DNA from: an uncultured Bacteroidales bacterium | Lineage (GTDB): Bacteria; Bacteroidota; Bacteroidia; Bacteroidales; VadinHA17 | NCBI GenBank assembly: GCA_963736675.1 | Contig: CAVTPT010000002.1 | Coordinates: 160,358 to 224,357 of the forward strand | DNA: 64,000 bases | Direction of reading: 5' to 3' | Shown here: positions 4,653 through 41,932 of the stretch, one piece after another | Layout: every line of letters starts with the position of its first letter | Numbering within the stretch: the stretch's first letter is position 1 | Notes under the pieces: model-generated | Told to the model about the DNA's origin: nothing | Databases searched by the model: none | Seen by the model: the letters and a program-made list of their open reading frames with translations, nothing else | Translations under genes and position numbers: made by a program

Positions 4653-4682
4653 AATATTACTTTTACACTAAATCGTGTTACG

Positions 4683-19669: not shown

Positions 19670-19760
19670 AATAATTGATTTTAGTTATGTTTTGAATTGA
19701 TAAATCCATTTTACATGATAAATAAGACTTCTGAAACTGATTTTACAGTCAATCAATATT

Positions 19761-21239
19761 TTACATAGCCTCAAGATGACCTTTCCATTTTGAATATGCT
19801 TTCTCGTACTCCGGTGTCAGTTTATTATCAGGTTTGGTAACACCAACTGCTTTCAGACCCTTGAAGGCGTCTTTTTCTGTTTTGTAGAATCCGCATCCTA
19901 TCCCTGCACCTCTGGCAGCTCCTATCGAACCATCGGTATTGTAAAGATGAATCTCCGTTCCGGTTATACACGATAAAACTTCTCTGAAAACCTTGCTGAG
20001 GAACATGTTTGCCTCTCCAGCACGTATCAGTTGCGGATTGATGCCGGTCTCTTTCATGATATCGAGTCCGTACTTGAATGAGAAAGCAATTCCTTCCTGA
20101 GCTGCCCTGAACATATGTGAATTTGAGTGCCTGTTAAAGTCTAAACCTATAACGCGACATCCGGCATCTTTGTTCAGCAACATTCTCTCGGACCCATTGC
20201 CAAAGGGAAGAATCGATAATCCTGCTGATCCGGGAGCTACCTGAGCCGCAAGCTCGTTCATTTCATTATACGACAAATTATTGCCTGAATTGCGTTTCAG
20301 CCAGGAATTAAGAATGCCTGTCCCATTGATACAGAGCAGTACTCCCAGCCTCTGCTTTTCTGCACTGTGATTGACATGAAGAAATGTATTCACCCTCGAC
20401 TGCGGATCATATTTTTTCTGGTCAGTCACACCATAAATTACACCCGAAGTACCAGCAGTGGCAGCAACTTCGCCAGGGTTCAGCACGTTGAGCGATAGTG
20501 CATTATTCGGTTGATCGCCAGCCCGGTACGAAACCGGAATGCCGGCAGGTAATCCGAATTCCTCAGCTACCTGTTTCAGGAGAGTTCCCTGAACTGAGAA
20601 CGATGAAGCAGCCTGAGGCAGAATGTCTGATTTAAAACCAAAGGAATCCATTAGCTCGCCTGAAACGCTATTATTTTTAAAATCCCAGAAAATACCTTCC
20701 GACAGGCCGGTAAATGAAGTGGATATCCCGCCGGTAAACCTCATCGCCACATAATCGCCCGGAAGCATTATCTTGAAAATCTTTTTGAACAGATCGGGCT
20801 CATTCTCTTTCACCCAGGCAAGTTTTGCAGCCGTAAAATTTCCGGGAGAATTAAGGAGATGTGAAAGGGCAAATTCTTTCCCCAGCCTGTCAAATGATTT
20901 CTGTCCGTACTCCACCGCCCTGCTGTCGCACCATATTATTGAAGGACGAAGTACCTTTTTATCCTTGTCCACTGCTACAAGACCATGCATCTGGTACGAA
21001 ATACCGATGGCACCTATATCATTTTTCTTTGCACCCAGCTGATTGCCGCAATCTTTAATAGAAGCTTTTAGATTATCCCACCATGCGTCCGGTTCCTGTT
21101 CTGCCCAACCCGGTTTGCTGGCTATTATCTTCATCTCAACTTTTGGATAGAATGCTGTGGCAAGGCAATTGCCCGACTCGCCCTCGATCACTGAAGCCTT
21201 TACTGATGAGCTTCCCAAATCAATTCCAAGTAATAACAT
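19761..21239 (-). CDS. xylB: xylulokinase (FGGY carbohydrate kinase)
   Basis: LGIDLGSSSVK start and GISYQMHG FGGY motifs. Adjacent to xylA. Confidence 0.85.
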   Translation of the reverse strand: MLLLGIDLGSSSVKASVIEGESGNCLATAFYPKVEMKIIASKPGWAEQEPDAWWDNLKASIKDCGNQLGAKKNDIGAIGISYQMHGLVAVDKDKKVLRPSIIWCDSRAVEYGQKSFDRLGKEFALSHLLNSPGNFTAAKLAWVKENEPDLFKKIFKIMLPGDYVAMRFTGGISTSFTGLSEGIFWDFKNNSVSGELMDSFGFKSDILPQAASSFSVQGTLLKQVAEEFGLPAGIPVSYRAGDQPNNALSLNVLNPGEVAATAGTSGVIYGVTDQKKYDPQSRVNTFLHVNHSAEKQRLGVLLCINGTGILNSWLKRNSGNNLSYNEMNELAAQVAPGSAGLSILPFGNGSERMLLNKDAGCRVIGLDFNRHSNSHMFRAAQEGIAFSFKYGLDIMKETGINPQLIRAGEANMFLSKVFREVLSCITGTEIHLYNTDGSIGAARGAGIGCGFYKTEKDAFKGLKAVGVTKPDNKLTPEYEKAYSKWKGHLEAM

Positions 21240-21374
21240 AATTTAAAATTTTATAATTTATATTAATCTGTCGTAAGGTGTTTTTTCGAAAGCCTAAAGT
21301 ACTCAAAGTTATTAAATCCTTATCACAAGCAGGATTAACTTTAATCATTTTTTATAATTTTAACTCTTGCTGCT

Positions 21375-22583
21375 TTACCAGTAATACATTGTTCCGTCCG
21401 ATTTCCGGTTTACCGGAAGTGTAGCCATCCCATAGGGATATCCCGAAGCTTTTTCCTCATCAATATCGACACCAATACCAGGAGTATCATCAATATAAAG
21501 AGAGCCATTCTTAAATGCGTAATTAATACTGAATACCTCATTTACAATTTCCTGATGTGGCATATATTCCTGGATACCAAAATTATTTATTGCCAGATTA
21601 AAGTGAATTGCCGCAGCAAGATTTACAGGCGACAGATCAGTGGCTCCGTGAAATCCTGTCTGAATATGGTACACCGATGCAAATGCCGCTACCTTCATTA
21701 AATGAGTAATTCCTCCTCCGTGAACCAGTGGCATCCGTATATAGTCGATAAGCTGCCCGGTTATCAGGGTGGTGTAATCATATATAGTGTTGAATACCTC
21801 CCCTATTGCCACAGGGGTTGTTGAATGTTGCCTCAATAGCCTGAGCCCCTCCTGTAGCTCTCCTGACACCGGATCCTCAAGCCAGAAAAGATGATAGGGC
21901 TCTAGTTCCTTTGCGAGCCTGGCTGCCTCAATGGGTGTACACCGGTGATGTGCATCATGTAACAGGTGGACATCTTCACCATACACTTCCCTTACTTTAC
22001 TGAACAGCGAAGGGACGAAATTCAGATATCTGGCTGTATCCCACGACTCTTCATGAGGCAATCCCCTGTTGGCAGGTTCATAAGGCTTGCCGTCAGGAGG
22101 CACTCCATAGGTATGAGGTATTCCCGGTATACCCGATTGTACCCTTACGGCAGTAAAACCCTCTTCTATCTTCTCCCCTACCTTGTCGATGGTTTCATTC
22201 AGATCCCTACCGTTGGCATGACAGTAGACCTGTACTTTCTCCCTGCTCTTACCTCCCAGAAGGTTATAGAGAGGTGTATTAAGCGCCTTCCCCTTAATAT
22301 CCCAGAGGGCCATATCGATTGCTGAAACGGCTGTCATGCTTACTGAACCCCTCTTCCAGTATACACCTTTATAGAAATAGTGCCATATATCTTCGGTATT
22401 GCGCGGATCCCTTCCTGTAAGCATCGGGATGCAGTAATCCTCAAGATATGCGACAACAGCCTTTTCCATCCCGTTAAGAGTTGCATCTCCCAGTCCGTAA
22501 ATACCTTCGTCAGTAAATACTTTCAGGGTGGTAAAATTCCTCCCCGGAGAACATAATATTACTTTAGCTCCTGTTATTCTCAC
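21375..22583 (-). CDS. manD: D-mannonate dehydratase, enolase-superfamily ManD type
   Basis: MRITGAKVILCSPGRNFTTLKVFTDEGIYGLGDATLNG is the characteristic ManD N-terminus. 402 aa. Confidence 0.8.
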   Translation of the reverse strand: MRITGAKVILCSPGRNFTTLKVFTDEGIYGLGDATLNGMEKAVVAYLEDYCIPMLTGRDPRNTEDIWHYFYKGVYWKRGSVSMTAVSAIDMALWDIKGKALNTPLYNLLGGKSREKVQVYCHANGRDLNETIDKVGEKIEEGFTAVRVQSGIPGIPHTYGVPPDGKPYEPANRGLPHEESWDTARYLNFVPSLFSKVREVYGEDVHLLHDAHHRCTPIEAARLAKELEPYHLFWLEDPVSGELQEGLRLLRQHSTTPVAIGEVFNTIYDYTTLITGQLIDYIRMPLVHGGGITHLMKVAAFASVYHIQTGFHGATDLSPVNLAAAIHFNLAINNFGIQEYMPHQEIVNEVFSINYAFKNGSLYIDDTPGIGVDIDEEKASGYPYGMATLPVNRKSDGTMYYW

Positions 22584-22728
22584 GATAAATCATTTTTTAA
22601 TTATTACATCTTTAAGCTCAGAATCACTATTATATTAAGCATGTTTTTCCACATATACCTTTTCGTATTCGCGCAATTAAGTACCTTCGTTCACGCCTCA
22701 CGCCTCACGCCTCTATCTTAGTCAATGC

Positions 22729-23625
22729 CTAAATAACGTTGACCTTTTTAATACTTATTTTATCTCTTTTATAATGATGATGATTTACTGTTGATAACAG
22801 GAGATAACTTGAAGAGTTATCCTTGTTATCAATAGTATCTTTAAATGCTTTTGGCGTTAATTTCCCCAACGCTTTGTGTGGTTTTTCATTATTGTACATG
22901 TGTACTGCTTTGTTTAACAGCTTCCTGAGCGTTTTCATGTTTGTCGGGCCATATGGATAAAGATAGTTGTTTTTGATTATCCCGTTTAGCCTCTCAGCAT
23001 GTGAGTTCTCGTACACCTTTTCCTCTGTCATAGAGTTAATCATTTTAAGGCTCTTTGTGAGTGCTTTAAATTCATTGCAATAATACTGACCGCCACCATC
23101 AGAATGTATTATAGATCCTTTTAAATTCACCGTGCCACGCAGTGCAATCAACATTCTCAGGGCAGGTAACGTTGTAGTCTCAGTTCGCAGATTATCACTG
23201 GCAGACCAACCGACTATCTCGCGATTATAAAGATCCATTATAAAAGTCAAATAATATACATCTGAGCCTATATCGAAGTAGGTAATGTCACTCACAAAAA
23301 CCTGGTTCACACGTGTAACCCTGATATCCTTTATCATGTTTGGAAAACGAGTCACTCCAAGGCTGTTGGTTGTAACCCTGTAGTTCTTTAATCTCTTGAT
23401 CCTGTAACCATAGTCCATGCAAAAACGTTCGAACTGATCTCTGCCCATGCAATGTGGCTTAAGCTTAAGATAGATGTCTCTGGCTGACATACGTGGATGA
23501 TCTCTACGTATCTCATTTATCAAAGGTATCAACTGCTCAAGCTCTTCGTACTTGTATTTCCTTCGTTTAAGCATTTGATGGAAAGACTGCTTGCTTATAT
23601 TCAAAACATTAAAAAGATCGTTCAT
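22729..23625 (-). CDS. IS3 transposase OrfB (DDE / rve integrase core)
   Basis: SDITYF ... HSDGGGQY ... NSHAERLNG pattern (DDE triad context). The frame is continuous with the -1 frame of orfA after the A-run. Confidence 0.85.
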   Translation of the reverse strand: MNDLFNVLNISKQSFHQMLKRRKYKYEELEQLIPLINEIRRDHPRMSARDIYLKLKPHCMGRDQFERFCMDYGYRIKRLKNYRVTTNSLGVTRFPNMIKDIRVTRVNQVFVSDITYFDIGSDVYYLTFIMDLYNREIVGWSASDNLRTETTTLPALRMLIALRGTVNLKGSIIHSDGGGQYYCNEFKALTKSLKMINSMTEEKVYENSHAERLNGIIKNNYLYPYGPTNMKTLRKLLNKAVHMYNNEKPHKALGKLTPKAFKDTIDNKDNSSSYLLLSTVNHHHYKRDKISIKKVNVI

Positions 23626-24071
23626 TTTTTTCCTGTGGACTTCTCTGTTAAAGTAGTACCAGGTAAGAGCCTGGAACCTGCTTTTTTTTTAATGTCAACA
23701 TTATAAGTAGATTCTGCTATCTCTATCATTTTATCCTTGAACTCAATCAATAATTGTTTCTGTCCAACTATTCTCTCAAGTTCCTTAATCCGTTCTTCAA
23801 GAGCTTTAATTTTCAGAGTATCACTCTTTGCTTCAACTACTTGTTTTACTTGCTTTTTTGCCATTGCCGAATATTTGTAAATCCAATCATAAACTGTTCT
23901 TCTGCTTACTGAATAAGTTTTACTAATATCGGTAACTGATGTCAGATTACGTTCCAGTTCCCTGATTTTCTTTTTCTTAAAATCCTCACTGAAATACCTG
24001 TGATACTGAGGTTTGTTCTCATGATCAAAATAATTCACTTTTGCCATACTGTTAACCTTTTTTTTGGTCAA
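23622..24071 (-). CDS. IS3 transposase OrfA (HTH + leucine-zipper-like)
   Basis: HTH (ISKTYSVSRRTVYDWIYKY) and a coiled-coil segment. Ends just after the AAAAAAAAA slippery site. Confidence 0.8.
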   Translation of the reverse strand: MTKKKVNSMAKVNYFDHENKPQYHRYFSEDFKKKKIRELERNLTSVTDISKTYSVSRRTVYDWIYKYSAMAKKQVKQVVEAKSDTLKIKALEERIKELERIVGQKQLLIEFKDKMIEIAESTYNVDIKKKAGSRLLPGTTLTEKSTGKK

Positions 24072-24092
24072 CGTATTTCAGGCATCGACACT

Positions 24093-24830
24093 TCAAAACC
24101 CTATTGAATTTCCTCCGTCTACCGGTAATACGACACCCGTTATATAGGAGGCAGAATCTGAAATCAGAAAATAAGCTGCTTCAGCAACCTCCTCAGGTTT
24201 TCCCAGTCTTCCGAGTGGAGTTCGTGAATAGACTCTTTTTTTTCTTTCAGGGTCCCGGTCGAGGGCTGACGACGACATACTGGTAGTGATAAAACCGGGA
24301 GCGATGCAGTTAACCCTTATACCATATGGGGAGAGTTCCACCGCCAGAGCCCTGGTCATCCCTTCAATAGCCGATTTTGAAGCAGTATAGGCGATAACAA
24401 GGGGCAGTCCATAGATAGAGGCCATTGAACTAATATTCAGGACCACACCATCTTCCTGCTCCTGCATGAAACCTGCCACTGCCCTGGTAAGGCTGAAAAC
24501 AGAGGTCTGATTTGTCAGGATAACCTTCTGATACTCTTCGTCCGTTACTTCGTTAAAAGCCTTTTTCAGGTGTATCCCTGCATTGTTTACCAGAATGTCA
24601 ATCCTCCCGAACCGGTCAATCAGCTGCTGGACAACTCCCGGTATATCCCCGAGCCGGTTTAGGTCACAGACAATCCAGTCGGTCATATTACCAAGCACTT
24701 CACCGGCCTTTTGCAGCTTTATCCTGTCCCGCCCCAGCAAAACAGTCTTTATGCCGTTCCTCACAAATTTTTCAGCAATGGCAAATCCTATACCGGAAGC
24801 TCCGCCTGTTATGATTGCTACTTTTCCCAT
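24093..24830 (-). CDS. SDR family oxidoreductase (UxuB-like fructuronate/mannonate reductase by context)
   Basis: TGGASGIG cofactor motif, NNAG and YxxxK (YTASK). Located between GH67 and ManD. Confidence 0.8.
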   Translation of the reverse strand: MGKVAIITGGASGIGFAIAEKFVRNGIKTVLLGRDRIKLQKAGEVLGNMTDWIVCDLNRLGDIPGVVQQLIDRFGRIDILVNNAGIHLKKAFNEVTDEEYQKVILTNQTSVFSLTRAVAGFMQEQEDGVVLNISSMASIYGLPLVIAYTASKSAIEGMTRALAVELSPYGIRVNCIAPGFITTSMSSSALDRDPERKKRVYSRTPLGRLGKPEEVAEAAYFLISDSASYITGVVLPVDGGNSIGF

Positions 24831-24892: not shown

Positions 24893-27052
24893 CTAATAAA
24901 TACCCGGTATATCGGTGTATTTGTGCGACCTGTAAAAATCCAGACTCTTCTCCGGTTTTTCAACCAACGGGGGTATTGTCCTTTTGGAAAAAGTCTGAAA
25001 ATAAAGTAAGCATCCGTCTTTCCAGATTTTTGCATCTCTTTCCTGCATCTCCAGAAATTTCAGTACCTGCGCATACCTGTCGCTGTCGATGGAATCCTTC
25101 AGTTGTATCCAGCCGGTTTTCATCTGTCTTACTGCCTTCACTCCCTCGTCGTACCTTAAACACATCTCATCCCAGAGTGTGTTCCCCGACTTCATCCTGT
25201 AATCCCATGGTACATGATGGAACCATAACAGGAGATTTTCAGGACATGTCTCAATATTTTCGTACAGGTCTCTGACAGGTGCGAAATATTGTCCTGCAGC
25301 ATTGCTCCCGCCTGAGGTCCTGTTAAAGCCAATCCCGGCACTATCGGCACGGTGATAGTAGACTGATGTCCAGTCCTGCCGCCCCCTGTCAACCCATGGC
25401 CCCGGGCCGTAATGATGACCTGAGTACATTATATGGTGCAGCCCAAGCGGTGTCATATAGTTTACAGCTGTTTCGCGTGAGTCAAGCATCATCTTGCTAA
25501 TCTTCCCGGCAACTGTATTGTCATTTGTAAAGGTCATTCTTATCCATTCATCAGCTATCACCGAAGATAAGAGGTAAGGATCCCAGGCCAGCCTTCCGAA
25601 GGCGTACCAGTTGGATTGTGCAAAGGGGTGTCCGGTCCAGTTTGTCACACTGCCAATGTTTGAAACACCTGCCATAGCCGTCAGTGAATGTTTTTCGACC
25701 GAACCGTCGATGATACCGGCAACAGGTGTCCCTTTACCCCTGGCATACGTATCTGATTTAAGACACTCTTCATAAAGGGGAGCAAGGTAAACGAGGTGGA
25801 CCGACGATCCAAAGTACTCCTGGGTTATCTGCAATTCAGGCATGAGAGGTGTTTTGGGCATTGCACCGAAAAGAGGGTGAAACGGTTCCCTTGGCTGAAA
25901 ATCAACGGGTCCGTTTTTTACCTGTATTATGACATTATCCCTGAACTTACCGTCGAGGTTGACGAATTCGTTATAAGCCTGTTTTGCCCTGTCGTCGGGC
26001 ACATTACTATCGTAAACAAATGCCCTCCACATCACAACTCCTCCATGAGGAGCAACTGCATCAGCAAGCATGTTTGCTCCGTCGGCGTGATCCCTGCCGT
26101 AATTCTGCGGACCCGGCTGTCCCTCTGAATTGGCTTTGACAAGGAAACCTCCGAAATCAGGAATAAAGGAATAAATTTCATCTGCTTTATCTTTCCACCA
26201 TTTTGCCACTTCAGCATCAAGAGGGTCGGCTGTCTTCAAATTCCCTATCTCAACAGGGGCGCTGAAACGAGCGGTGAGATAGACCTTCAGTCCATAAGGC
26301 CGGAAGGCATCAGCCAGTGCGGCTACTTTAACCAGATAATCTTTTGTCAGGATCAGGGCATTGGCATTGACATTTGTCAGGGCTGTGGCATTTATTCCTA
26401 TTGATGCATTAGCCCTGGCATAATCAATATAACGCTGCGAAATAGTGCCAGGGAGAGAATCCCAGTTCCAGAGAGAAAGTCCGGAATAACCCCTCTCCAC
26501 ACTTCTGTCCAGATTATCCCAGTGGTTCAGTATCCTGATCCTGGTTTTGGGCGAACTTACAACTGCCAGACCTGAAACAGACTGGTGCATCTGCATAAGC
26601 CTCAGGAAATGGAAGACACCATAAAGAACTCCTTTATCACTATTCCCGGTTATTACAGTAATTCGTTTATTTTTATAAACAGTGCTCAAAATAATATACC
26701 CCTCCTCATTTACACCTGCGAGCCTGTCTTTCAGTTTAAGCGAAGCTATTACCTTCGATGTTACCTGTGTGCCTGCAACTATGGTCCCATGCTTTTTTAC
26801 CGAACGCACTTCATTCACCGTTTTGCCCAGCAATCCGTTGAGGCCAAGCTGAAGCTCCTTCCCTGCAACAGCAAGTGTTGGTGAATCACCCCCGATCATC
26901 CAGCCGGTGATCTCTTTTTTGTATTGTTCAAGCAATTCAGCATTTGTTATCTGGTCATACCTTAACCAGAGCCTCGAGCCGTCTTCTGCTTTAAGAAATG
27001 CAGGCGAGATCAGAATAACCGCAATTAAAAGTGTTTTTAACAGGCTTTTCAT
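24893..27052 (-). CDS. alpha-glucuronidase, GH67
   Basis: Signal peptide followed by EDGSRLWLRY, the classic GH67 N-terminus. 719 aa. Confidence 0.85.
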   Translation of the reverse strand: MKSLLKTLLIAVILISPAFLKAEDGSRLWLRYDQITNAELLEQYKKEITGWMIGGDSPTLAVAGKELQLGLNGLLGKTVNEVRSVKKHGTIVAGTQVTSKVIASLKLKDRLAGVNEEGYIILSTVYKNKRITVITGNSDKGVLYGVFHFLRLMQMHQSVSGLAVVSSPKTRIRILNHWDNLDRSVERGYSGLSLWNWDSLPGTISQRYIDYARANASIGINATALTNVNANALILTKDYLVKVAALADAFRPYGLKVYLTARFSAPVEIGNLKTADPLDAEVAKWWKDKADEIYSFIPDFGGFLVKANSEGQPGPQNYGRDHADGANMLADAVAPHGGVVMWRAFVYDSNVPDDRAKQAYNEFVNLDGKFRDNVIIQVKNGPVDFQPREPFHPLFGAMPKTPLMPELQITQEYFGSSVHLVYLAPLYEECLKSDTYARGKGTPVAGIIDGSVEKHSLTAMAGVSNIGSVTNWTGHPFAQSNWYAFGRLAWDPYLLSSVIADEWIRMTFTNDNTVAGKISKMMLDSRETAVNYMTPLGLHHIMYSGHHYGPGPWVDRGRQDWTSVYYHRADSAGIGFNRTSGGSNAAGQYFAPVRDLYENIETCPENLLLWFHHVPWDYRMKSGNTLWDEMCLRYDEGVKAVRQMKTGWIQLKDSIDSDRYAQVLKFLEMQERDAKIWKDGCLLYFQTFSKRTIPPLVEKPEKSLDFYRSHKYTDIPGIY

Positions 27053-27080: not shown

Positions 27081-28106
27081 TCACAGTTTTTGTGATGATC
27101 TGCGCACTATCAGGCTATGCTTTAATATGATAGTGCTAAGGTTGCCAGTTCCGGTATTATTCAGCTTGTTTATCAGCGAAGTGGCTGCAATCTCTCCGAT
27201 TTCCCTGGCGGGATAATCGACGGTTGTAAGGGTTGGCTGAACAACGTAACTGATGGGCTCGTTATTAAATCCTACCACGGCTATCTCTTCGGGTATCTTA
27301 ATGCCCGCCTTTTCAAGTTCAACAATTATAGCTACTGCCGAGGTGTCGTTAGACGAAAAAATTGCATCCGGACGCGGGTTCATCTTCATAATTTTTTCGG
27401 CGGTTTCAACACCCGCCTGTTCACTCATATCACAGGAAAATACCAGCGACGGATCAAATGTAATGCCATTATCAGCAAGGGCCTGCCTGTATCCTGCAAA
27501 TCGTCCGGAATATACATTTCGCATGAAATTACCCCCAACATGAACGATTCTTCTGCACCCCTGTGTTATCAGGTGCGACGTAGCCTCATAACCTGCTTTT
27601 ATGTTATCAATTACAACACTCATACAATCGTGGCAGTCGGCAACCCTGTCAAAAAAGATTACAGGAATGTTCTTATTAAAAAGAATATTAAAATGGTCCA
27701 GGTTCCGGGTATCGGATGCAAGAGAAACAAGCAATCCATCGACCCTGCTGTTAAAAAGTGTTGAGATACACGAAATCTCTTTCTTTTCGGATTCCTGCGA
27801 CTGGCTGATAATAAGGCCGTAACCATTCTGGGTGGTGATCTTCTCTATCCCGGCTATGGCCGCTGCCATGAAATAACTATTCAGCCTTGGTACCACAACT
27901 CCGATCGTATAGGTTCGTTCCAGCCGGAGATTGCTGGCAAATTTATTGTGCCGGTAGCCCATTTCGCTGGCAGCACTTCTTATTCTTTTTTTCGTCTCCT
28001 GGCTTATGTGAGGATGGTCCTTTAACGCACGGCTAACTGTTGAAGGTGACAGGTTGAGAGCCTTTGCAACATCGTATATCGTTACTTCCCTTTTTACTCC
28101 GGACAT
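27081..28106 (-). CDS. LacI family transcriptional regulator
   Basis: HTH VTIYDVAKALNLSPSTVSRAL plus a periplasmic-binding-fold body. I prefer ATG 28104-28106 over the TTG-extended track ORF (to 28172), which would run through the operator. Confidence 0.85.
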   Translation of the reverse strand: MSGVKREVTIYDVAKALNLSPSTVSRALKDHPHISQETKKRIRSAASEMGYRHNKFASNLRLERTYTIGVVVPRLNSYFMAAAIAGIEKITTQNGYGLIISQSQESEKKEISCISTLFNSRVDGLLVSLASDTRNLDHFNILFNKNIPVIFFDRVADCHDCMSVVIDNIKAGYEATSHLITQGCRRIVHVGGNFMRNVYSGRFAGYRQALADNGITFDPSLVFSCDMSEQAGVETAEKIMKMNPRPDAIFSSNDTSAVAIIVELEKAGIKIPEEIAVVGFNNEPISYVVQPTLTTVDYPAREIGEIAATSLINKLNNTGTGNLSTIILKHSLIVRRSSQKL

Positions 28107-28167
28107 CCCTCTTTTTTTACCAAAAGTAGTAAATAATGACAGAATATTAAAGGAGAAATGAAATTTC

Positions 28168-28181
28168 TGCAACCGATTGCA
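28168..28181. promoter_or_regulatory. LacI-type operator TGCAACCGATTGCA (copy 1)
   Basis: 14-bp near-palindrome with a central CG, matching the generic LacI/GalR pattern TGnAAnCGnTTnCA. Lies in the divergent lacI-GH67 / GH115 intergenic region. The 15 nt CTGCAACCGATTGCA are identical to those at 41918-41932. Confidence 0.6.
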
Positions 28182-28362: not shown

Positions 28363-31326
28363 ATGCGTAAGATCTTATTAATTATAGCGTTAGCGGTATA
28401 TTGCTTACAAATACCTGTTAATGGCCAGCCAACTTTCGGCACTCAACAGTTTATTTCCGGGAAGAAAGTAAAGGGAGGTTTGTCTCTTTCAGTATCAGGT
28501 ATTTCAGCCCCGCTTGTTGTAAGTTCAAAAGAGTGGCCCGGGGTGACAAGAGCTTTTCAGGATCTCAGGAGCGACATCGGAAAGGTTACATCATACCAGC
28601 CGGAAATATTTACTGATAACATTCCGCGATCGAAGGAGATTGTTGTTGCAGGTACTATAGGGAAAAGCGCCCTTATCGATGAGCTTATCAGGGAAAAAAA
28701 GATTGATGCAGAGGGGGTAACCGGTAAATGGGAGTCCTTCCTTATCCAGGTAGTTAAAAATCCTTACAAGGGTGTTAAAAGGGCTCTTGTTATTGCAGGG
28801 AGTGACAAGCGCGGAACCATTTACGGGATATATGAGGTATCGAGGCAGATCGGTGTTTCACCCTGGTACTGGTGGGCCGACGTTCCGGTAAATCATAAAA
28901 AGGAGCTTTATGTAAGTCCTGGCCGTAATGTTTACGGATCTCCGTCAGTCACATACCGCGGTATCTTTCTGAACGATGAGGCACCTGATCTGACTAACTG
29001 GATAAGAGCTAAGTTCGGAAATGTACCTGTCGCCGATGATCCTCCCATGCCGGAGGGGATAGCAAACTATGGCAGAGAATTTTATACAAGGCTTTTTGAG
29101 CTTATGTTACGTCTTAAGGCTAATTATCTCTGGCCAGCCATGTGGAATAATGCTTTCAATGAAGATGATCCTGAGAATCCGAAACTGGCCGATGAGTACG
29201 GCATAGTGATGGGAAATTCGCATCAGGAACCTATGCTGCGTGCTCAGAAAGAGTGGGACCGGAGGTATCAGAAAAAGATAGGAAGCTGGAATTATGCAAA
29301 GTATCCCGATATCGTAGAGGAATTTTGGAGAGAAGGAATAAAGAGAAACAGGAACTATGAAAGTATTGTTACAATTGGCCTGCGTGGGGCAAATGATACT
29401 CCAATGGCACCGGGCGGACCGGAAGCCAATATTGCCCTGCTCGAAAAGATTGTTGGTGTACAGCGAAAAATTCTGGCCGACGAGATAAATCCCGATGTAA
29501 CCAAAGTACCTCAGCTATGGTGCCTTTACAAGGAAGTGCAGGATTACTATAATGCCGGGATGAGGGTCCCGGATGATGTTACCCTGTTATGGGCCGAAGA
29601 TAACTGGGGCAATGTACGAAGGCTCCCCACTGCCGAAGAGAGAAAACGTTCCGGCGGTGCAGGAATCTACTACCATTTTGACTATCACGGCGGGCCAAGA
29701 AGCTACCAGTGGATCAACACAAACCCCATAGCAAAAATATGGGACCAGATGTCGCTGGCAAAACAGTATGGTGCCGACAGGATATGGATAGTGAATGTCG
29801 GGCATTTCAAGGGTTATGAATTCCCGATTGAGTATTTCCTCGACCTTGCATGGAACACCGAAGAACTTACCAGCGACAATATCAATGAATATACAAGGCA
29901 ATGGGCCGAAAGAGAATTCGGGGACCAATATGCAGGAGAAATCGCCGGGATAATGTCTCTTTATACAAAATATAACGGGCGGCGGAAACCGGAACTTCTT
30001 TCCCCGTCAACTTACAGTCTCGTAAACTATAACGAAGCTGAAAAGGTTGTTGCCGACTACAAAAAAATTGCCTCACAGGCTGAAGATATTCTCAGCAGTC
30101 TGCCTGAAGAGAGAAGAGATGCATTTTACCAGCTTGTATTGTTCCCTGCAAAAGCAAGCTCAGTAGTAAATGAGCTATACCTTGCTGCAGGAAAAAACGA
30201 TCTCTACTCGCGACAGGGAAGGGCCAGCACAAACGACATGGCCGACCAGGTCCATTCACTCTTCAGTACCGATACGGCCATGATGGGATACTTTAACCGC
30301 TCTTTTGCAAATGGTAAATGGAACCATTTTATGGATCAGTCGCATCTGGGATATACAAACTGGGCCGATCCTCCGGTAAACAGCCTCAAGGCGATAAAGC
30401 TGAAGCAGATTGAACCTTTATCCGGATCGGTTATGGGTGTGACAATTGAGGGATCAGAGGCAGTCTGGCCGGGGGAAGCCGGTGATGCATCATTACCTCA
30501 GTTTGATGTATTTAACCATCAGACAAGGTATATCGATGTCTTTAACAGGGGCACAATACCATTTGAATTCACGGCATCTGCAGATAAGGATTGGGTAATC
30601 ATCAGGAAGGAAGAAGGACCCTTCGGCAAAGATGAAAGGCTTCTGATATCAGTCGACTGGGAAAGGGTACAATCCGGTAGAAGCCAGAGCAAAATCAGGA
30701 TTTCAGGAACAGGTGTCGATGTGTTTGTCAATGCATATGCATTCAGGCCTCAGGAAATCACACCCGAAACTCTTGATGGCTTTGTTGAAGGTGAAGGTTT
30801 TGTATCTGTCGAAGCTGCGCATTATAGTGCCAATATACCGGCAGGTGTCAGCCGGTGGATTAATATTGAGGATTACGGACATACATTATCCGGAATGAGG
30901 GCATCTGCTCCTGCCGACAATCCTGCTGCTGTAGCGGGGAAAGATGCCCCGTGCCTTGAGTATAACATGTATCTGTTCAGCCAGGGCTCTTTTGAAGTCA
31001 CTTCAGTTTTCTCGCCGGCACTTAATTTTATGCCCGGGAGAGGACTTCAGTACGCAATCTCATTTGACGATCAGGCTCCACAGGTGATAACTCTTGTTCC
31101 GGCAGACTACAACGCGCAGAACGGGAACAGGGACTGGGAAAAATCGGTAAGCGACAATGCCAGGTTCAGCAAAACCATTCATAAAATAGAATCCCCGGGA
31201 TATCATAAAATGAAAATATGGATGATAGATCCCGGGATTGTCATTCAGAAGATAATGGTCAATACCGGAGGATTGAAAGAGAGCTATCTTGGTCCTCCGG
31301 AGAGCTACTTTAACATCCGGAAATGA
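28363..31326 (+). CDS. GH115 xylan alpha-(1,2)-glucuronidase
   Basis: 987 aa. The RGTIYGIYEVSRQIGVSPWYWWADVP motif is typical of GH115. Confidence 0.8.
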   Translation: MRKILLIIALAVYCLQIPVNGQPTFGTQQFISGKKVKGGLSLSVSGISAPLVVSSKEWPGVTRAFQDLRSDIGKVTSYQPEIFTDNIPRSKEIVVAGTIGKSALIDELIREKKIDAEGVTGKWESFLIQVVKNPYKGVKRALVIAGSDKRGTIYGIYEVSRQIGVSPWYWWADVPVNHKKELYVSPGRNVYGSPSVTYRGIFLNDEAPDLTNWIRAKFGNVPVADDPPMPEGIANYGREFYTRLFELMLRLKANYLWPAMWNNAFNEDDPENPKLADEYGIVMGNSHQEPMLRAQKEWDRRYQKKIGSWNYAKYPDIVEEFWREGIKRNRNYESIVTIGLRGANDTPMAPGGPEANIALLEKIVGVQRKILADEINPDVTKVPQLWCLYKEVQDYYNAGMRVPDDVTLLWAEDNWGNVRRLPTAEERKRSGGAGIYYHFDYHGGPRSYQWINTNPIAKIWDQMSLAKQYGADRIWIVNVGHFKGYEFPIEYFLDLAWNTEELTSDNINEYTRQWAEREFGDQYAGEIAGIMSLYTKYNGRRKPELLSPSTYSLVNYNEAEKVVADYKKIASQAEDILSSLPEERRDAFYQLVLFPAKASSVVNELYLAAGKNDLYSRQGRASTNDMADQVHSLFSTDTAMMGYFNRSFANGKWNHFMDQSHLGYTNWADPPVNSLKAIKLKQIEPLSGSVMGVTIEGSEAVWPGEAGDASLPQFDVFNHQTRYIDVFNRGTIPFEFTASADKDWVIIRKEEGPFGKDERLLISVDWERVQSGRSQSKIRISGTGVDVFVNAYAFRPQEITPETLDGFVEGEGFVSVEAAHYSANIPAGVSRWINIEDYGHTLSGMRASAPADNPAAVAGKDAPCLEYNMYLFSQGSFEVTSVFSPALNFMPGRGLQYAISFDDQAPQVITLVPADYNAQNGNRDWEKSVSDNARFSKTIHKIESPGYHKMKIWMIDPGIVIQKIMVNTGGLKESYLGPPESYFNIRK

Positions 31327-31404
31327 CAAATACCTTATAACCGGGTTCTCAAAGGGCAGAGATCAACAAATAAAAAGTGCGAAATAACAAAAACCCGTCA
31401 TATC

Positions 31405-32670
31405 ATGAAAAGAGACTCTTCAAATCTGATCAGGTTAGCTGCAGCATCTGTTTTCAGCTTTTTAAGCCTGGCAGGCTTCCCCCAGAAGATTGCCACCCTG
31501 GAGGTTGATCTTCCTGAACCTGCTTTCGGACTCGAAATTCCCGTGAGCATTAATCTTGATGAGGTGACGTATGTGACTGACTCCCTTTTAGCATTATTTG
31601 AAGTTAAAGGCAGTACCCGTACGCCTGTATCGTTTCAGATAGAACAGGGTGATCAGAGAAGGTTGCACTGGCTGGTGGAAACGGGAAGCGTAGCCGGTGA
31701 AAAACATACTTTTGAACTTGTTCAGGGAAAAGTAAAACAGGCTGAAGTAATAAAAGCAACTGTAAACGATGGAACTCTGACAATCCATAATGGAGATCAG
31801 AATCTTCTCAGGTATTATTTTAAGACACTTTATCCTCCGGAAGGTGTTGATACTGCCTACCGCCGGAGCGGTTTTATTCATCCTTTATGGGCACCGAAAG
31901 GCCAGGAGCTGACAAGAATACAGCCACCCGATCATTATCATCATTATGACATCTGGAATCCCTGGACACATGTTGCCTACGAAGGAGATACTATTGATTT
32001 CTGGAATATAAATTCAAGGCAGGGCACTGTGCGCTTTGCCAACTTCGCCTCCGTTGAGAACGGATCTGTCTTTTCTGAATTCGGAGCTATGCATGAACAC
32101 GTTGTATTCAGAAAGAATGCTCCCGAAAAAGTTGCCATGAACGAACTTCATTCTGTAAGGGTATATCGTCCGCAGAAAAGCCAGGATTACTATATAGTCG
32201 ATTTTAATTTCAGTATGAACTGCGCTGATGAGAGTCCTGTAAAACTTCTGGAATACCGTTACGCCGGATTGGGCTGGAGGACGACAGAAAAATGGGACAA
32301 TAAGAACAGTATGGTACTTACCTCAGAAGGGAAGACAAGGAAAGATGCAGATGGCAGTACAGCACGCTGGTGCATTGTCCAGGGAGAGATTGACGATGAC
32401 TATGCCGGTGTTGTCATGATGTCGTTCCCGACTAATTACAATTTCCCGGAACCTTTGCGTATATGGCCGGAGAATCAGTATAACAGGGGTGATATGTTCG
32501 CAAACTTCTGCCCGACGAAGGATAAAGACTGGCTGTTACAGCCCCGTCGCAACTACACTTTAAAATACAGGTTCCTGGTATATAATGGCCGTATGGATAA
32601 AGATAAGGCTGAAAGTGCCTGGCAATATTTCGCTTATCCTCCTGAAATAACCATAAAAAAAACAAAATAA
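31405..32670 (+). CDS. PmoA-like / DUF6807 family protein (secreted)
   Basis: The HPLWAP...PPDHYHHYDIWNPW motif is typical of the 'methane oxygenase PmoA' (DUF6807) Pfam family. Function unknown. Confidence 0.55.
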   Translation: MKRDSSNLIRLAAASVFSFLSLAGFPQKIATLEVDLPEPAFGLEIPVSINLDEVTYVTDSLLALFEVKGSTRTPVSFQIEQGDQRRLHWLVETGSVAGEKHTFELVQGKVKQAEVIKATVNDGTLTIHNGDQNLLRYYFKTLYPPEGVDTAYRRSGFIHPLWAPKGQELTRIQPPDHYHHYDIWNPWTHVAYEGDTIDFWNINSRQGTVRFANFASVENGSVFSEFGAMHEHVVFRKNAPEKVAMNELHSVRVYRPQKSQDYYIVDFNFSMNCADESPVKLLEYRYAGLGWRTTEKWDNKNSMVLTSEGKTRKDADGSTARWCIVQGEIDDDYAGVVMMSFPTNYNFPEPLRIWPENQYNRGDMFANFCPTKDKDWLLQPRRNYTLKYRFLVYNGRMDKDKAESAWQYFAYPPEITIKKTK

Positions 32671-32907
32671 CCAGTTAAAGAAATAATGAATAAGAACAAT
32701 CCGGTACACCTGAAGCACTTTCTGCGTTACATCGGTAATGGAAATAAGGTTACCCCCCGAAAACGGGTTAACGGCGACGGAGAAGGTTCCATTGCAGAAC
32801 AACATTATCAGATTTTTTGATTAACTTGGATCTCTGCCTTAAAAACCGGAAGGTTTGCTTTTCAAAATCTAAACGATCCAATATATTGTAATTTAATAAC
32901 TTACACT

Positions 32908-34284
32908 ATGAAAAGAAGAAAATTTATTACTAATTCCATTACCGCCGCAGCGGGGACTATAATTATTCCCACAATAATTCCTTCATCAGTTATGGGCAGG
33001 AATCCGCCCAGCGACAGGATCAACATAGGATGGATCGGTTGTGGCAGGCAGGGGACAGGTGATATTTCAGGTACGATGAGGTTTGATTCTGCTATTGTTG
33101 TCGCTGCCTCCGATGTCGATTCAAACAGAATGGCAATTGGGAAACAATTTGTTGAAAGGTACTATGCCAGGCAGACCGGAAAAAGTGACTATGTAAATGT
33201 GAAAACTTTTGGTGACTACAAGGAGATGCTCCTTGATAAGTCAATAGATGCTGTTATGATAACAACTCCCGATCACTGGCATTCACAGCCGGCCATTGAA
33301 GCTGCCCTTGCAGGTAAAGATATCTACCTTGAGAAGCCGACATCACTTACCATCACAGAGGGAAGATTATTAAGCGACGTCATAAAACGTACGAAGGTTA
33401 TACTCCAGGTTGGCACCCAGCAGCGTTCTAGTCCCCAGTGGAGAATAGCCGCCGAGCTTGTAAGAAACGGCAGGATCGGGAAGCTTCACACGGTTAAAAT
33501 AGGACTCCCGGGAGATCCTTCCGGACCAGAAGCACCGGAGATGCCGGTACCCGGGAACCTGAACTATGATATGTGGCTGGGATCGACCCCTGAGGTTTAC
33601 TATACCGAAACACGTGTGCATCCGCAGAATAGTATCAACGATCGCCCGGGATGGCTGAGGTGCGAACAGTTCGGAGCTGGTATGATAACCGGATGGGGAC
33701 AACACCATTTCGATTCAGCGGCATGGGGCATGGATACTGAACTTACCGGCCCTATATCGGTTGAAGCTGTTGCACAGTTCCCCAAATCAGGTTTGTGGGA
33801 TGTTCATGGGGACTTTATGTCAAAAGCCGAGTATAAGAATGGCATTACACTGCTGACAAGTGGTGGCTATCCTAATGGCGTAAGATATGAGGGTACCGAA
33901 GGCTGGATTTTTGTTACCCGTGGGGCATATACTGCTACTGCCAGCGATCCCGTAGTTGTTGACAGCAATGCCAAAGCGCTTGATGCAAGTGATCCGAAGA
34001 TCCTTCAGTCAGTTATCAGTGAAAATGAAACCCATCTGTATGTGAGTGAAAATCAACAGGGCAACTGGCTCGACTGCATCAAGTCGCGTAAAGAACCTGT
34101 TTCTCCGGTCGAAATTGGTCACCGCGCATGTACCGTCTGTCTCGTAACACACATTGCCATGAAGCTTGGCAGAAAGCTGAACTGGGATCCCGATAAGGAA
34201 AGATTCACTGACGACGACGAAGCAAACTCAATGCTTTCACGTCCACAGAGAGCTCCCTACGGGACCAATTATATAAAGATGTAA
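32908..34284 (+). CDS. Gfo/Idh/MocA family oxidoreductase with twin-arginine-type signal
   Basis: MKRRKFITNSITAAAG leader, GWIGCGRQG Rossmann motif and an EKP motif. Confidence 0.85.
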   Translation: MKRRKFITNSITAAAGTIIIPTIIPSSVMGRNPPSDRINIGWIGCGRQGTGDISGTMRFDSAIVVAASDVDSNRMAIGKQFVERYYARQTGKSDYVNVKTFGDYKEMLLDKSIDAVMITTPDHWHSQPAIEAALAGKDIYLEKPTSLTITEGRLLSDVIKRTKVILQVGTQQRSSPQWRIAAELVRNGRIGKLHTVKIGLPGDPSGPEAPEMPVPGNLNYDMWLGSTPEVYYTETRVHPQNSINDRPGWLRCEQFGAGMITGWGQHHFDSAAWGMDTELTGPISVEAVAQFPKSGLWDVHGDFMSKAEYKNGITLLTSGGYPNGVRYEGTEGWIFVTRGAYTATASDPVVVDSNAKALDASDPKILQSVISENETHLYVSENQQGNWLDCIKSRKEPVSPVEIGHRACTVCLVTHIAMKLGRKLNWDPDKERFTDDDEANSMLSRPQRAPYGTNYIKM

Positions 34285-34293
34285 TTTCTCTTT

Positions 34294-35196
34294 ATGAAGA
34301 CAATACTTATAAAATGCCTCCTGATTGCTGGAGGCATTATTATTGCTTTACCAGTAAAAGGGGTAAAGATAAATGCCGAAAAAGTCGGATCGAAGATAAA
34401 TATCACAATAGATGGTAAGTATTTTACCAGCTATATCTTCTCAACTGATGAAAAATATCCCTTTTTCTATCCGGTAAACGGACCCCTTTCAGGCGGCTCT
34501 GTCACTTCAATGCGTAATGCTGTCTACCCTCATCATACATCACTATTTTTTGGTTGCGATATGGTTAACGGAGGTAATTACTGGCAGGAGGGGCTTGAAC
34601 GCGGAAGGATAATTTCTGTAAATGCCCGTGTGGAGAAAGAGGGGGGCGATACTGTAATCATAACAGATGAATGCATCTGGAGCCGACCGGGAGCACTCTC
34701 TCCCATTAAGGATACGAGAAGAATTATTATTACTGCGCCATCTTCAAGTTTAACCCGGATAGATTTCGATATAACCATGGAGATGCTGATGGATGTCCAA
34801 ATCTCAAAAACCAATCATTCTCTTTTCAGTGCCAGGATGGCAGCAGACCTTGCTGTCACAAACGGAGGGACAATGATCAATGCGGAAGGGGCAAAAAGTG
34901 AAAAGGAGACTTTCGGCAAGAACTCGGCCTGGATTGATTTCTATGGCAAAAGGGGTGCAATTACTGAGGGACTGGCAATTTTACAGCATCCGTCCAACCC
35001 CTGGTTCCCCTCACCCTGGTTTACCAGGGACTACGGGTTTATGTCACCTACCCCTATGTACTGGCCTGAAAACGGGGAAGTGACTTTTCTGAAGAAAGGA
35101 AGCAGTCTTAATCTCCGGTACAGGGTACTTGTACATGCCGGAAATAGTGATGAAGCCCGGATAAGTGAGGCATTTGACAAATATTCGAAAGAATAG
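34294..35196 (+). CDS. PmoA-like / DUF6807 family protein (second, shorter)
   Basis: Signal peptide. FFYPVNGP ... HHTSLFFG ... NYWQE pattern of DUF6807. Confidence 0.55.
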   Translation: MKTILIKCLLIAGGIIIALPVKGVKINAEKVGSKINITIDGKYFTSYIFSTDEKYPFFYPVNGPLSGGSVTSMRNAVYPHHTSLFFGCDMVNGGNYWQEGLERGRIISVNARVEKEGGDTVIITDECIWSRPGALSPIKDTRRIIITAPSSSLTRIDFDITMEMLMDVQISKTNHSLFSARMAADLAVTNGGTMINAEGAKSEKETFGKNSAWIDFYGKRGAITEGLAILQHPSNPWFPSPWFTRDYGFMSPTPMYWPENGEVTFLKKGSSLNLRYRVLVHAGNSDEARISEAFDKYSKE

Positions 35197-35320: not shown

Positions 35321-35360
35321 AAGAGGCTGTTCTCACCTCTTGAGAAAGCCTCTTTAAATT
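35321..35360. terminator. bidirectional terminator between convergent genes
   Basis: aagaggct ... agcctctt 8-bp stem, flanked by A-rich and T-rich runs. Confidence 0.55.
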
Positions 35361-41893: not shown

Positions 41894-41901
41894 CAAAATT
41901 A
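41894..41901 (-). promoter_or_regulatory. candidate -7 promoter box (TAATTTTG on the minus strand) for the corrinoid operon
   Basis: Exact TAnnTTTG match 74 nt upstream of the start codon. The LacI-type operator lies 18-31 nt further upstream, at the expected -33 position. Confidence 0.4.
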
Positions 41902-41918
41902 TAAATTATATTTATTCC

Positions 41919-41932
41919 TGCAACCGATTGCA
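41919..41932. promoter_or_regulatory. LacI-type operator TGCAACCGATTGCA (copy 2)
   Basis: Identical to 28168-28181, with 15 nt identical when the preceding C is included. About 100 nt from both divergent start codons (41820 and 42033). Confidence 0.6.

What the first reader, a model, noticed from the sequence alone, without database searches (positions are those of the whole stretch)
28168..28181. Identical LacI-type operator in the GH67/GH115 control region and in front of the corrinoid operon
CTGCAACCGATTGCA occurs at 28167-28181, between the divergent lacI-GH67-SDR-... and GH115-... units. It occurs again, identical, at 41918-41932, between the corrinoid operon and the ConA/TolB-like gene.

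The 14-bp core TGCAACCGATTGCA is a near-palindrome (12 of 14 positions symmetric) with a central CG, matching the canonical LacI/GalR operator pattern TGnAAnCGnTTnCA.

A given 15-mer recurring by chance in 64 kb (both strands) is expected about 1e-4 times (128000 / 4^15).

At the second site the operator lies where the -33 element would sit, relative to an exact TAnnTTTG -7 box (41894-41901, minus strand). That geometry fits repression of the corrinoid operon.

The only LacI-family gene in the window is 27081-28106. I found no further copies in the other intergenic regions I scanned by eye.
Basis: seen in the sequence. Interest (0 to 1): 0.75.

Follow-up and report, generated by a model that had tools for sequence, protein, structure and literature searches.

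The report
Shared LacI operator links xylan and corrinoid genes
A 14-base DNA switch for a LacI-type repressor sits in front of both the xylan side-chain (glucuronidase) genes and a vitamin-B12-dependent methyl-transfer operon, and it is conserved across many uncultured anaerobic Bacteroidales, which suggests these bacteria handle the methyl group of xylan's methyl-glucuronic acid with a B12 enzyme system.

Summary
CTGCAACCGATTGCA occurs exactly twice in the window (28167-28181 and 41918-41932), and the flanks are unrelated.

- The 14-bp core TGCAAYCGRTTGCA lies upstream of the lacI gene in all 14 orthologous genomes recovered. It is typically 38-42 nt from a TAnnTTTG -7 box.
- In 33 loci (window included) it lies 16-18 nt upstream of the -7 box of the promoter driving the corrinoid operon. 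In some relatives that promoter drives a SusC-SusD(-GH10)-corrinoid operon. The site therefore covers the -33 position.
- Where lacI is present in the locus, the corrinoid promoter carries the site in 10 of 11 cases. Where lacI is absent, it does so in 0 of 13, and decayed remnants are visible.

This is an ordinary LacI/GalR repressor-operator pair in mechanism. Its regulon is unusual. It joins GH67/GH115 alpha-glucuronidases, mannonate and xylose catabolism, and a corrinoid protein / methyl-THF methyltransferase / MetVF-type reductase / reactivation-domain operon. That operon ends in GH3, or in a CE15 glucuronoyl esterase in some relatives.

A role in removing the 4-O-methyl group of methyl-glucuronic acid is plausible but unproven. 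No substrate-specific methyltransferase was found.

The parts
28168..28181 (.). Operator 1 (TGCAACCGATTGCA) in the divergent lacI / GH115 intergenic region
   Evidence: It lies 39 nt upstream of the lacI -7 box. The same geometry (38-42 nt) occurs in 21 loci, window included.
41919..41932 (.). Operator 2 (same 14-mer) in the corrinoid-operon / PD40 intergenic region. Read in the operon's direction it is TGCAATCGGTTGCA.
   Evidence: It lies 17 nt upstream of the -7 box. The 16-18 nt geometry is conserved in 33 loci, window included.
41894..41901 (-). -7 box TAATTTTG (Bacteroidetes-type TAnnTTTG) of the corrinoid operon promoter
   Evidence: The operator's GTTG ends 19 nt upstream of it, which is the position expected for a -33 element (spacing rule from my own knowledge of Bacteroides promoters).
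28121..28128 (-). -7 box TACTTTTG of the lacI promoter
   Evidence: An equivalent box is conserved in orthologues.
27081..28106 (-). LacI-family regulator, 341 aa, ATG start at 28106
   Evidence: PF00356 plus Peripla_BP_1/3/4; gapless alignment to the CcpA DNA-binding domain, with hinge Leu60. It is the only LacI gene in the window.
24893..27052 (-). GH67 alpha-glucuronidase, second gene of the lacI operon
   Evidence: Synteny lacI-GH67 holds in 11 of 14 orthologous loci; L007 and L014 lack GH67 at that position and L010 is too short to show it.
24093..24830 (-). SDR oxidoreductase, a candidate uronate-pathway reductase
22721..24089 (-). IS3-family insertion sequence that interrupts the lacI operon between SDR and ManD
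   Evidence: rve, HTH_Tnp_1; 24-nt terminal inverted repeats. Orthologues have SDR and ManD adjacent.
18344..22583 (-). ManD mannonate dehydratase (21375-22583), xylulokinase-like FGGY kinase (19761-21239) and xylose isomerase-like gene (18344-19669), forming the tail of the lacI operon
   Evidence: ManD scores above the NCBIfam cutoff. Synteny.
28363..35196 (+). Divergent unit: GH115 alpha-glucuronidase, DUF6807, TAT-signal GFO/IDH/MocA oxidoreductase, DUF6807. All carry signal peptides.
41152..41820 (-). Corrinoid protein (B12-binding_2 plus B12-binding)
   Evidence: the best solved relative is 1Y80, a Moorella cobalamin-binding protein.
40297..41136 (-). Pterin-binding methyl-THF:corrinoid methyltransferase
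   Evidence: PRK07535 above cutoff; the best solved relative is 4O0Q, then MeTr.
38815..40257 (-). MetV(DUF5981)-MetF fusion, a methylene-THF reductase-like protein
38123..38827 (-). Stand-alone MetH-type activation (reactivation) domain with an RxxxGY motif at residue 157
   Evidence: (1J6R)..
35379..38063 (-). GH3 (Xyl3A-like beta-xylosidase with PA14), last gene of the corrinoid transcription unit. A terminator-like hairpin follows at 35321-35341.

Best explanation
TGCAAYCGRTTGCA is the operator of the LacI-family repressor encoded at 27081-28106. A LacI dimer binds each copy.

At the corrinoid operon the operator occupies the -33 position of a Bacteroidetes-type promoter. Its GTTG ends 19 nt from the -7 box TAATTTTG, so bound repressor would block RNA polymerase.

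At its own locus the operator lies 39 nt upstream of the lacI -7 box, inside the divergent lacI/GH115 control region. There it probably governs the GH115 unit and autoregulates lacI.

A cytoplasmic product of glucuronoxylan side-chain breakdown would release the repressor. Candidates are methyl-glucuronate, glucuronate, a small aldouronate or a downstream uronate metabolite. Release would switch on three units together:
- alpha-glucuronidases (GH67, GH115);
- mannonate and xylose catabolism;
- the corrinoid methyl-transfer module with GH3.

Shown here: the sites, their conservation, their fixed promoter geometry, and their co-occurrence with lacI. Inferred: binding, repression, and the effector.
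For: - The site is exact at two places in the window and at chance level elsewhere.
- In 1.09 Mb of related loci, one search lists 54 sites with up to 1 mismatch (window included) and add 13 more, against 0.35 expected. All lie in lacI, corrinoid/SusC-operon or xylB control regions.
- The 14-bp core is invariant across 48 distinct sites, while the flanks are unconserved and AT-rich.
- The site is present upstream of lacI in 14 of 14 orthologues at 50-77% identity.
- Two fixed geometries recur: 16-18 nt to the -7 box at the catabolic promoter (33 loci) and 38-42 nt at lacI (21 loci).
- With lacI in the locus the corrinoid promoter carries the site in 10 of 11 cases. Without lacI it does so in 0 of 13 (Fisher p = 5.6e-6, not corrected for phylogeny).
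- The operator has decayed at an otherwise conserved promoter in loci lacking the site, including three lacI-less loci (L041, L057, L073).
- The protein has the LacI HTH, a hinge leucine and a PBP-type effector domain.
Against: - No binding or expression data exist.
- L074 has lacI but no site in front of its corrinoid operon.
- Operator 1 does not overlap a recognisable core promoter for either lacI or GH115, so repression there is not explained by simple occlusion.
- The loci come from related uncultured Bacteroidales, so the co-occurrence counts are not independent events.
- lacI could exist elsewhere in the genomes I scored as lacI-less.
Confidence: 0.8

Rival explanations
1. The motif is a real regulatory site, but it is bound by a different transcription factor, for example a global cre-like carbon-control regulator, and not by the adjacent LacI.
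For: The site resembles the generic LacI-family / cre pattern TGnAAnCGnTTnCA. The closest solved relatives of the protein are CcpA proteins.
Against: - Only two sites occur in 64 kb, and none lies at the other sugar loci in the window such as GH51, KdgT or GH20-like.
- The site is always present upstream of lacI itself.
- It disappears from the corrinoid promoter when lacI is absent.
- Positions 3 and 12 (C and G) do not fit the W of the cre consensus TGWAANCGNTNWCA (consensus from my own knowledge).
Confidence: 0.07
2. Operator 2 controls the divergently transcribed PD40/TolB-like gene (42033-43559) rather than the corrinoid operon.
For: The site lies in a shared 212-bp intergenic region, 100 nt upstream of the PD40 start. 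A PD40 gene lies next to and divergent from the corrinoid protein in many loci.
Against: - The 16-18 nt spacing is to a -7 box pointing toward the corrinoid or SusC operon.
- That spacing holds in loci where the divergent neighbour is an acyltransferase and not PD40: L008, L030, L076, L097, L098, L101.
- No exact -7 box lies on the PD40 side in the window.
Confidence: 0.06
3. The two identical 15-mers are a chance recurrence or part of a dispersed repeat element.
For: None beyond the prior that short repeats occur.
Against: Shuffles give 0.09 expected matches even at up to 2 mismatches. Identity stops exactly at the motif edges. Position and spacing are conserved across dozens of loci.
Confidence: 0.01

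Closest known systems
XylR (LacI-type) and the xyl-box of Xanthomonas and Caulobacter
   Same: A LacI-family repressor with a 14-bp palindromic operator that controls xylan-degradation and xylose-utilisation genes and is released by a sugar (PMC10380989).
   Different: The operator sequence differs (TGGTAGCGCTAACA against TGCAAYCGRTTGCA). The hosts are Proteobacteria with sigma-70 promoters. No corrinoid or methyl-transfer genes are reported in that regulon. The effector here is unknown.
CcpA / PurR, the structurally characterised LacI/GalR repressors
   Same: These are the best solved relatives (E about 1e-54 and 1e-41). They share the HTH and the hinge-helix leucine that inserts at a central CG step (mechanism from my own knowledge of PurR and LacI structures).
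   Different: CcpA is a global regulator that needs HPr-Ser-P. This protein is a local regulator encoded next to its targets, with a narrower and nearly invariant operator.
Corrinoid-dependent O-demethylase / methyltransferase systems of anaerobic Firmicutes (Moorella Mtv, Desulfitobacterium and Acetobacterium Odm)
   Same: The corrinoid protein and the methyl-corrinoid:THF methyltransferase have their closest solved relatives in these organisms (1Y80 and 4O0Q). That these structures belong to O-demethylase systems is my own knowledge.
   Different: No substrate methyltransferase (MT I) was found. The activator is a MetH-type SAM-binding domain rather than a RACE/RamA ATPase. The host is Bacteroidales, and the operon is embedded in xylan PULs under a sugar repressor.
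Cytochrome P450 demethylation of 6-O-methyl-galactose in marine Bacteroidetes porphyran PULs (my own knowledge; not retrieved here)
   Same: A dedicated system inside a polysaccharide utilisation locus for a methyl-ether sugar.
   Different: That system is oxygen-dependent P450 chemistry that releases formaldehyde. The system here would be anaerobic, B12-dependent methyl transfer to tetrahydrofolate.

Membership tests
LacI/GalR repressor-operator pair | Regulator with an N-terminal LacI-type HTH and a periplasmic-binding-protein-like effector domain | tested here: met
   PF00356 at residues 9-54 and Peripla_BP_1/3/4 at 66-338, all above cutoff.
LacI/GalR repressor-operator pair | Hinge helix with a conserved leucine | tested here: met
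   gapless alignment to CcpA residues 2-74. NKFASNL aligns with NAVARGL, giving Leu60.
LacI/GalR repressor-operator pair | 14-16 bp inverted-repeat operator with a central CG | tested here: met
   TGCAAYCGRTTGCA, with the core invariant in 48 distinct sites.
LacI/GalR repressor-operator pair | Operator located in the control regions of its own gene and target operons, and conserved with the regulator | tested here: met
LacI/GalR repressor-operator pair | Specific DNA binding that is relieved by a small-molecule effector | not testable with these tools
   Needs EMSA or footprinting with purified protein and candidate sugars.
XylR / xyl-box regulon (Xanthomonas, Caulobacter) | xyl-box operator TGGTAGCGCTAACA | tested here: not met
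   The operator here is TGCAACCGATTGCA. The xyl-box sequence is from PMC10380989.
CcpA / cre global catabolite control | Many cre sites spread over diverse catabolic operons, independent of a local regulator gene | tested here: not met
   Two sites in 64 kb, and the site co-occurs with local lacI.
Corrinoid-dependent O-demethylase-type methyltransferase system | Corrinoid protein plus methyl-corrinoid:THF methyltransferase (MT II) | tested here: met
Corrinoid-dependent O-demethylase-type methyltransferase system | Substrate-specific methyltransferase MT I (URO-D-like, MtvB-, MtaB- or MttB-type) | tested here: not met
   None among the ORFs over 100 aa in the window that were scanned against Pfam, nor among conserved neighbours in 95 loci. 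It could be encoded elsewhere in the genome.
Corrinoid-dependent O-demethylase-type methyltransferase system | RACE/RamA-type ATP-dependent reductive activator | tested here: not met
   A MetH-type activation domain with RxxxGY is present instead.
Cobalamin-dependent methionine synthase (split MetH) | Homocysteine-binding S-methyltransferase module | tested here: not met
   No PF02574 hit in the operon or the window. The pterin, B12 and activation modules are present.
Bacteroidetes polysaccharide utilisation locus (PUL) | Adjacent SusC/SusD pair | tested here: inconclusive
   There is no SusC/D in the window. In relatives, SusC-SusD(-GH10) directly precede the corrinoid protein on the same strand: L031, L051, L076, L084, L097, L098.

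The most novel reading that the evidence does not exclude
The LacI regulon exposes an undescribed anaerobic route for the 4-O-methyl group of xylan's methyl-glucuronic acid. After GH67, GH115 or CE15 release the acid, its methyl ether (or that of a catabolic intermediate) would be passed to a corrinoid protein. From there it would go to tetrahydrofolate and be oxidised by a MetVF-type reductase, so the methyl group would enter the folate C1 pool rather than leave as methanol.

The system is built into xylan PULs of widespread wetland, sediment and digester Bacteroidales. It would need a substrate methyltransferase of a kind not yet recognised.
Probability: 0.3. Interest if true: 0.85.

Novelty: new member of a known kind. 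Interest (0 to 1): 0.6.

Why it matters
The switch itself is textbook LacI biology. Its value is as a pointer. It gives conserved regulatory evidence that a B12-dependent methyl-transfer operon belongs to glucuronoxylan utilisation in a large clade of uncultured anaerobic Bacteroidales. At least 2,693 protein clusters are homologous to the reactivation-domain protein, and more than 565 metagenome hits match the corrinoid protein.

To my knowledge, how bacteria dispose of the 4-O-methyl group of methyl-glucuronic acid is poorly understood, and searches of the held literature found nothing linking corrinoid enzymes to xylan loci.

If the link is functional, methyl groups from hemicellulose would enter the folate pool instead of being released as methanol. 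That bears on methanol supply to methylotrophic methanogens in peat, sediments and digesters. It would also add vitamin B12 dependence to xylan degradation.

The operator also makes a cheap experiment possible. One purified protein and two oligonucleotides would identify the inducer, and so the pathway's substrate.

Tried and rejected
- Literature searches linking corrinoid or cobalamin systems to methyl-glucuronic acid, xylan PULs, glucuronoyl esterase or Bacteroidota O-demethylases found nothing relevant. The LacI/GH67/GH115 search returned only an annotation-level mention of lacI in flavobacterial xylan PULs.
- Rfam at gathering thresholds found only a tRNA. There is no cobalamin riboswitch or other leader RNA at the corrinoid operon.
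- The search for a substrate methyltransferase was negative. I scanned the ORFs over 100 aa across the window against Pfam and clustered unlabelled ORFs from 95 related loci.
- The homology search with the reactivation-domain protein was saturated by the same clade at 57-62% identity. It gave no characterised or distant member.
- I could not locate a GH115-side -7 box. There is no exact TAnnTTTG between 28182 and 28362, and only near matches in orthologues.
- The sigma-70 promoter scan is uninformative for Bacteroidetes and sits at shuffle level.
- Weaker operator copies in the window (up to 3 mismatches) are at chance level.
- The longer TTG-start ORF 27081-28172, which would overlap operator 1, is rejected in favour of the ATG at 28106. 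Orthologue alignments start at residues 1-7.

Full report
**Observation**

The 15-mer CTGCAACCGATTGCA occurs at 28167-28181 and 41918-41932, both on the + strand. Nothing else matches within two mismatches, and dinucleotide shuffles give 0.09 matches on average. The bases on either side of the 15-mer differ at once between the two copies, so this is a discrete short element and not a duplicated segment. The 14-bp core TGCAACCGATTGCA is symmetric at 12 of 14 positions with a central CG. At three mismatches the window holds seven further hits against 8.6 expected. The window therefore has exactly two credible sites.

**Gene context**

- Site 1 lies between two divergent units.
  - The minus-strand unit is lacI (27081-28106), GH67, SDR, an inserted IS3 element, ManD mannonate dehydratase, an FGGY kinase and a xylose isomerase-like gene.
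  - The plus-strand unit is GH115, DUF6807, a TAT-signal GFO/IDH/MocA oxidoreductase and a second DUF6807.
- Site 2 lies between a minus-strand unit and a plus-strand PD40/TolB-like gene.
  - The minus-strand unit runs corrinoid protein, pterin-binding methyltransferase, MetV-MetF-type methylene-THF reductase, stand-alone MetH-type activation domain and GH3 (Xyl3A-like).
  - No terminator-like hairpin separates the activation-domain gene from GH3, and one follows GH3 at 35321-35341.
- The lacI gene is the only LacI-family gene in the window.

**Comparative test at lacI**

A scan of species-representative genomes with the LacI protein returned 14 orthologous loci at 50-77% identity, plus one distant paralogue. 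All are uncultured Bacteroidales or Bacteroidia from fens, sediments, biofilms and digesters. In all 14 orthologues the 14-mer lies 73-96 bp upstream of the lacI start. It is exact in 11 and one mismatch off in three. The surrounding intergenic sequence has diverged.

**Comparative test at the corrinoid operon**

- The corrinoid operon lies next to the lacI locus in seven of those genomes. In the three where its upstream region was captured (L008, L009, L012), an exact site sits 69-103 bp upstream of the corrinoid protein start. Its orientation relative to the operon matches the window.
- A metagenome scan with the corrinoid protein found more than 565 relatives. The best 80, at 78-85% identity, were retrieved.
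- Seven more long-contig loci were fetched through homologues of the activation-domain protein.
- Across the first 95 loci and the window, one search lists 54 sites with at most one mismatch. add 13 more in the later loci. About 0.35 are expected in the 1.09 Mb searched.
- Every site lies in a control region of lacI, of the operon containing the corrinoid genes, or of xylB in one locus (L021).

**Promoter geometry**

Sites fall into two classes.
- *Class A* (33 loci, including the window's site 2). The operator is followed after 16-18 nt by a Bacteroidetes-type -7 box TAnnTTTG that points into the corrinoid operon. In some relatives the box points into SusC-SusD(-GH10)-corrinoid operons or a GH2/GH10-corrinoid operon. 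The operator's GTTG then ends 19 nt from the -7 box. By my knowledge of Bacteroides promoters that is where the -33 TTTG element sits. A bound repressor would therefore occlude the promoter.
- *Class B* (21 loci, including the window's site 1). The operator lies 38-42 nt upstream of the lacI -7 box, which is TACTTTTG at 28121-28128 in the window.

I could not find a consensus -7 box on the GH115 side. Some relatives carry two or three operators at 23-bp spacing in the GH10/GH115-lacI intergenic region (L097, L098, L101). That pattern points to control of the divergent glycosidase unit.

**Is the adjacent LacI the cognate factor?**

- Where lacI is present in the locus, the promoter of the corrinoid-containing operon carries the site in 10 of 11 cases. 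These are the window, L008, L009, L012, L023, L030, L071, L097, L098 and L101. The exception is L074, where the SusCD segment and its promoter appear to have been deleted.
- Where the corrinoid operon is followed by xylB-xylA with no lacI in the locus, 0 of 13 carry it. Fisher p is 5.6e-6, without correction for shared ancestry.
- An alignment of homologous promoters shows the -7 box and leader retained while the operator position is degraded to 3-5 mismatches or interrupted in loci lacking the site, three of them lacI-less.
- The protein has the LacI HTH and the effector domain. Its closest solved relatives are CcpA and PurR. It aligns without gaps to the CcpA DNA-binding domain, including the hinge leucine.

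Binding, the sign of regulation and the effector remain inferences.

**Motif details**

Among 48 distinct sites the 14-bp core is essentially invariant. The flanks show only background AT-richness, with a weak C at -1 and G at +15. The centre is asymmetric (ATCGGT) in 44 sites, symmetric ATCGAT in four and never ACCGGT. The window's site 1 is flipped relative to most lacI orthologues, yet it keeps both the asymmetry and the 39-nt spacing. I have no explanation for the conserved asymmetry.

**What the regulon says about the corrinoid operon**

- The operon sits consistently inside xylan contexts.
  - Upstream, SusC/SusD and GH10.
  - At its tail, GH3 beta-xylosidase. In four loci (L006, L007, L011, L065) a CE15 glucuronoyl esterase also sits there, co-directional with the operon.
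  - Alongside, GH115, GH67 and xylB-xylA.
- The corrinoid protein and the pterin methyltransferase resemble 1Y80 (Moorella) and 4O0Q (Desulfitobacterium) more closely than MetH. To my knowledge both belong to catabolic O-demethylase systems.
- The fourth gene is a MetH-type activation domain with the RxxxGY SAM-binding motif.
- The reading that fits best is that a xylan-borne methyl group is passed to tetrahydrofolate. The obvious candidate is the 4-O-methyl ether of methyl-glucuronic acid released by GH67, GH115 or CE15.
- The main weakness is that no substrate-specific methyltransferase was found in the operon, the window or the conserved neighbours.
- Some lacI-less relatives carry a three-gene variant without the pterin methyltransferase.
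- Alternative methyl sources, such as the methoxy group of ferulate from feruloylated xylan, or methanol, are not excluded.
- A split methionine synthase is unlikely, because no homocysteine-binding module is present.

**Comparison with known systems**

Mechanistically this is a standard LacI/GalR repressor-operator pair. The nearest functional analogue is the LacI-type XylR with its xyl-box in Xanthomonas and Caulobacter, which controls xylan and xylose genes (PMC10380989). The operator sequence, the promoter type and the regulon content all differ from that system. lacI genes inside flavobacterial xylan PULs have been noted at annotation level (PMC5306329). I found no report linking corrinoid methyltransferases to xylan loci or to methyl-glucuronic acid.

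**Verdict**

The regulatory element is a new member of a known kind. The interest lies in what it connects. It gives conserved evidence that a B12-dependent methyl-transfer module is part of glucuronoxylan utilisation in a widespread group of uncultured anaerobes. It also gives a simple experimental handle on the inducer. I rate the probability that this reflects a new methyl-glucuronate demethylation route at about 0.3.

Noticed in passing
window 22721-24089: An IS3-family insertion sequence sits between the SDR and ManD genes of the lacI operon. It has two transposase ORFs (22729-23625 and 23622-24071) and 24-nt terminal inverted repeats. Orthologous loci have SDR and ManD adjacent, so ManD, xylB and xylA may be cut off from the LacI-controlled promoter in this genome.
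   Followed up: partly
L097 16462/16485/16508; L098 16556/16579/16602; L101 17877/17900: Two or three operator copies lie in tandem at exactly 23-bp spacing in the GH10/GH115-lacI intergenic region of relatives. The window has a single copy.
   Followed up: partly
window 28168-28181 and 41919-41932; 48 distinct sites across the loci: The operator centre is asymmetric (ATCGGT/ACCGAT) in 44 of 48 sites, ATCGAT in 4 and ACCGGT in none. Site 1 in the window is flipped relative to most orthologues but keeps the asymmetry. No explanation.
   Followed up: partly
L006 2976-4361, L007 2749-4167, L011 2048-4324, L065 11232-12731: A CE15 glucuronoyl esterase (with BACON domains in L011) lies co-directionally at the tail of the corrinoid operon in four relatives. 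It sits after GH3 in L006 and L007 and directly after the activation-domain gene in L011 and L065.
   Followed up: yes
L096 7818-10708, L099 6367-9208, L100 7785-10708: lacI-less relatives carry a three-gene variant of the operon (corrinoid protein, MetVF-like reductase, activation domain) with no pterin-binding methyltransferase. It is followed directly by xylB-xylA.
   Followed up: no
L033, L034, L040, L041, L046, L050, L065, L073 and others, about 60-130 nt upstream of the corrinoid protein start: A conserved leader of the form GCAAACAAAATAAATTGA(T/A)TTA(A/T)TTTG follows the -7 box and contains a second -7-like box. It is present whether or not the operator is intact and is absent from the window. 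No Rfam search of these loci was made; the window has no match.
   Followed up: no
window 52192-55415: A PdxA-like dehydrogenase is followed by an unusual fusion of a KdgT-type permease with a DUF1537-type (SBD_N/NBD_C) sugar-acid kinase, 743 aa. It lies next to a GH20b-domain protein (55433-57586). This may be an acid-sugar catabolic module and has no LacI site.
   Followed up: no
window 1194-8386: A cluster of an ARMT1-like protein, three ParA/NUBPL-type P-loop proteins (two with 4Fe-4S domains), NikR, a TonB-dependent receptor and a fusion of nucleoside-hydrolase-like and FmdE domains. It may be a metal (nickel or cobalt) or corrinoid-related uptake and maturation locus. No cobalamin riboswitch was detected.
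   Followed up: no
window 42033-43559 and 50645-52162: Two paralogous secreted PD40/Tricorn-like beta-propeller proteins, each with an N-terminal domain of about 200 aa that is unassigned. One lies next to and divergent from the corrinoid operon in a large share of the relatives.
   Followed up: no
L015 11255-11268: In a Ferruginibacter MAG a related palindrome, TGTAATCGATTGCA, lies between xylA and a second LacI-family gene that is 45% identical over a partial match. This suggests a wider family of xylose/xylan LacI regulators in Bacteroidota with similar operators.
   Followed up: no
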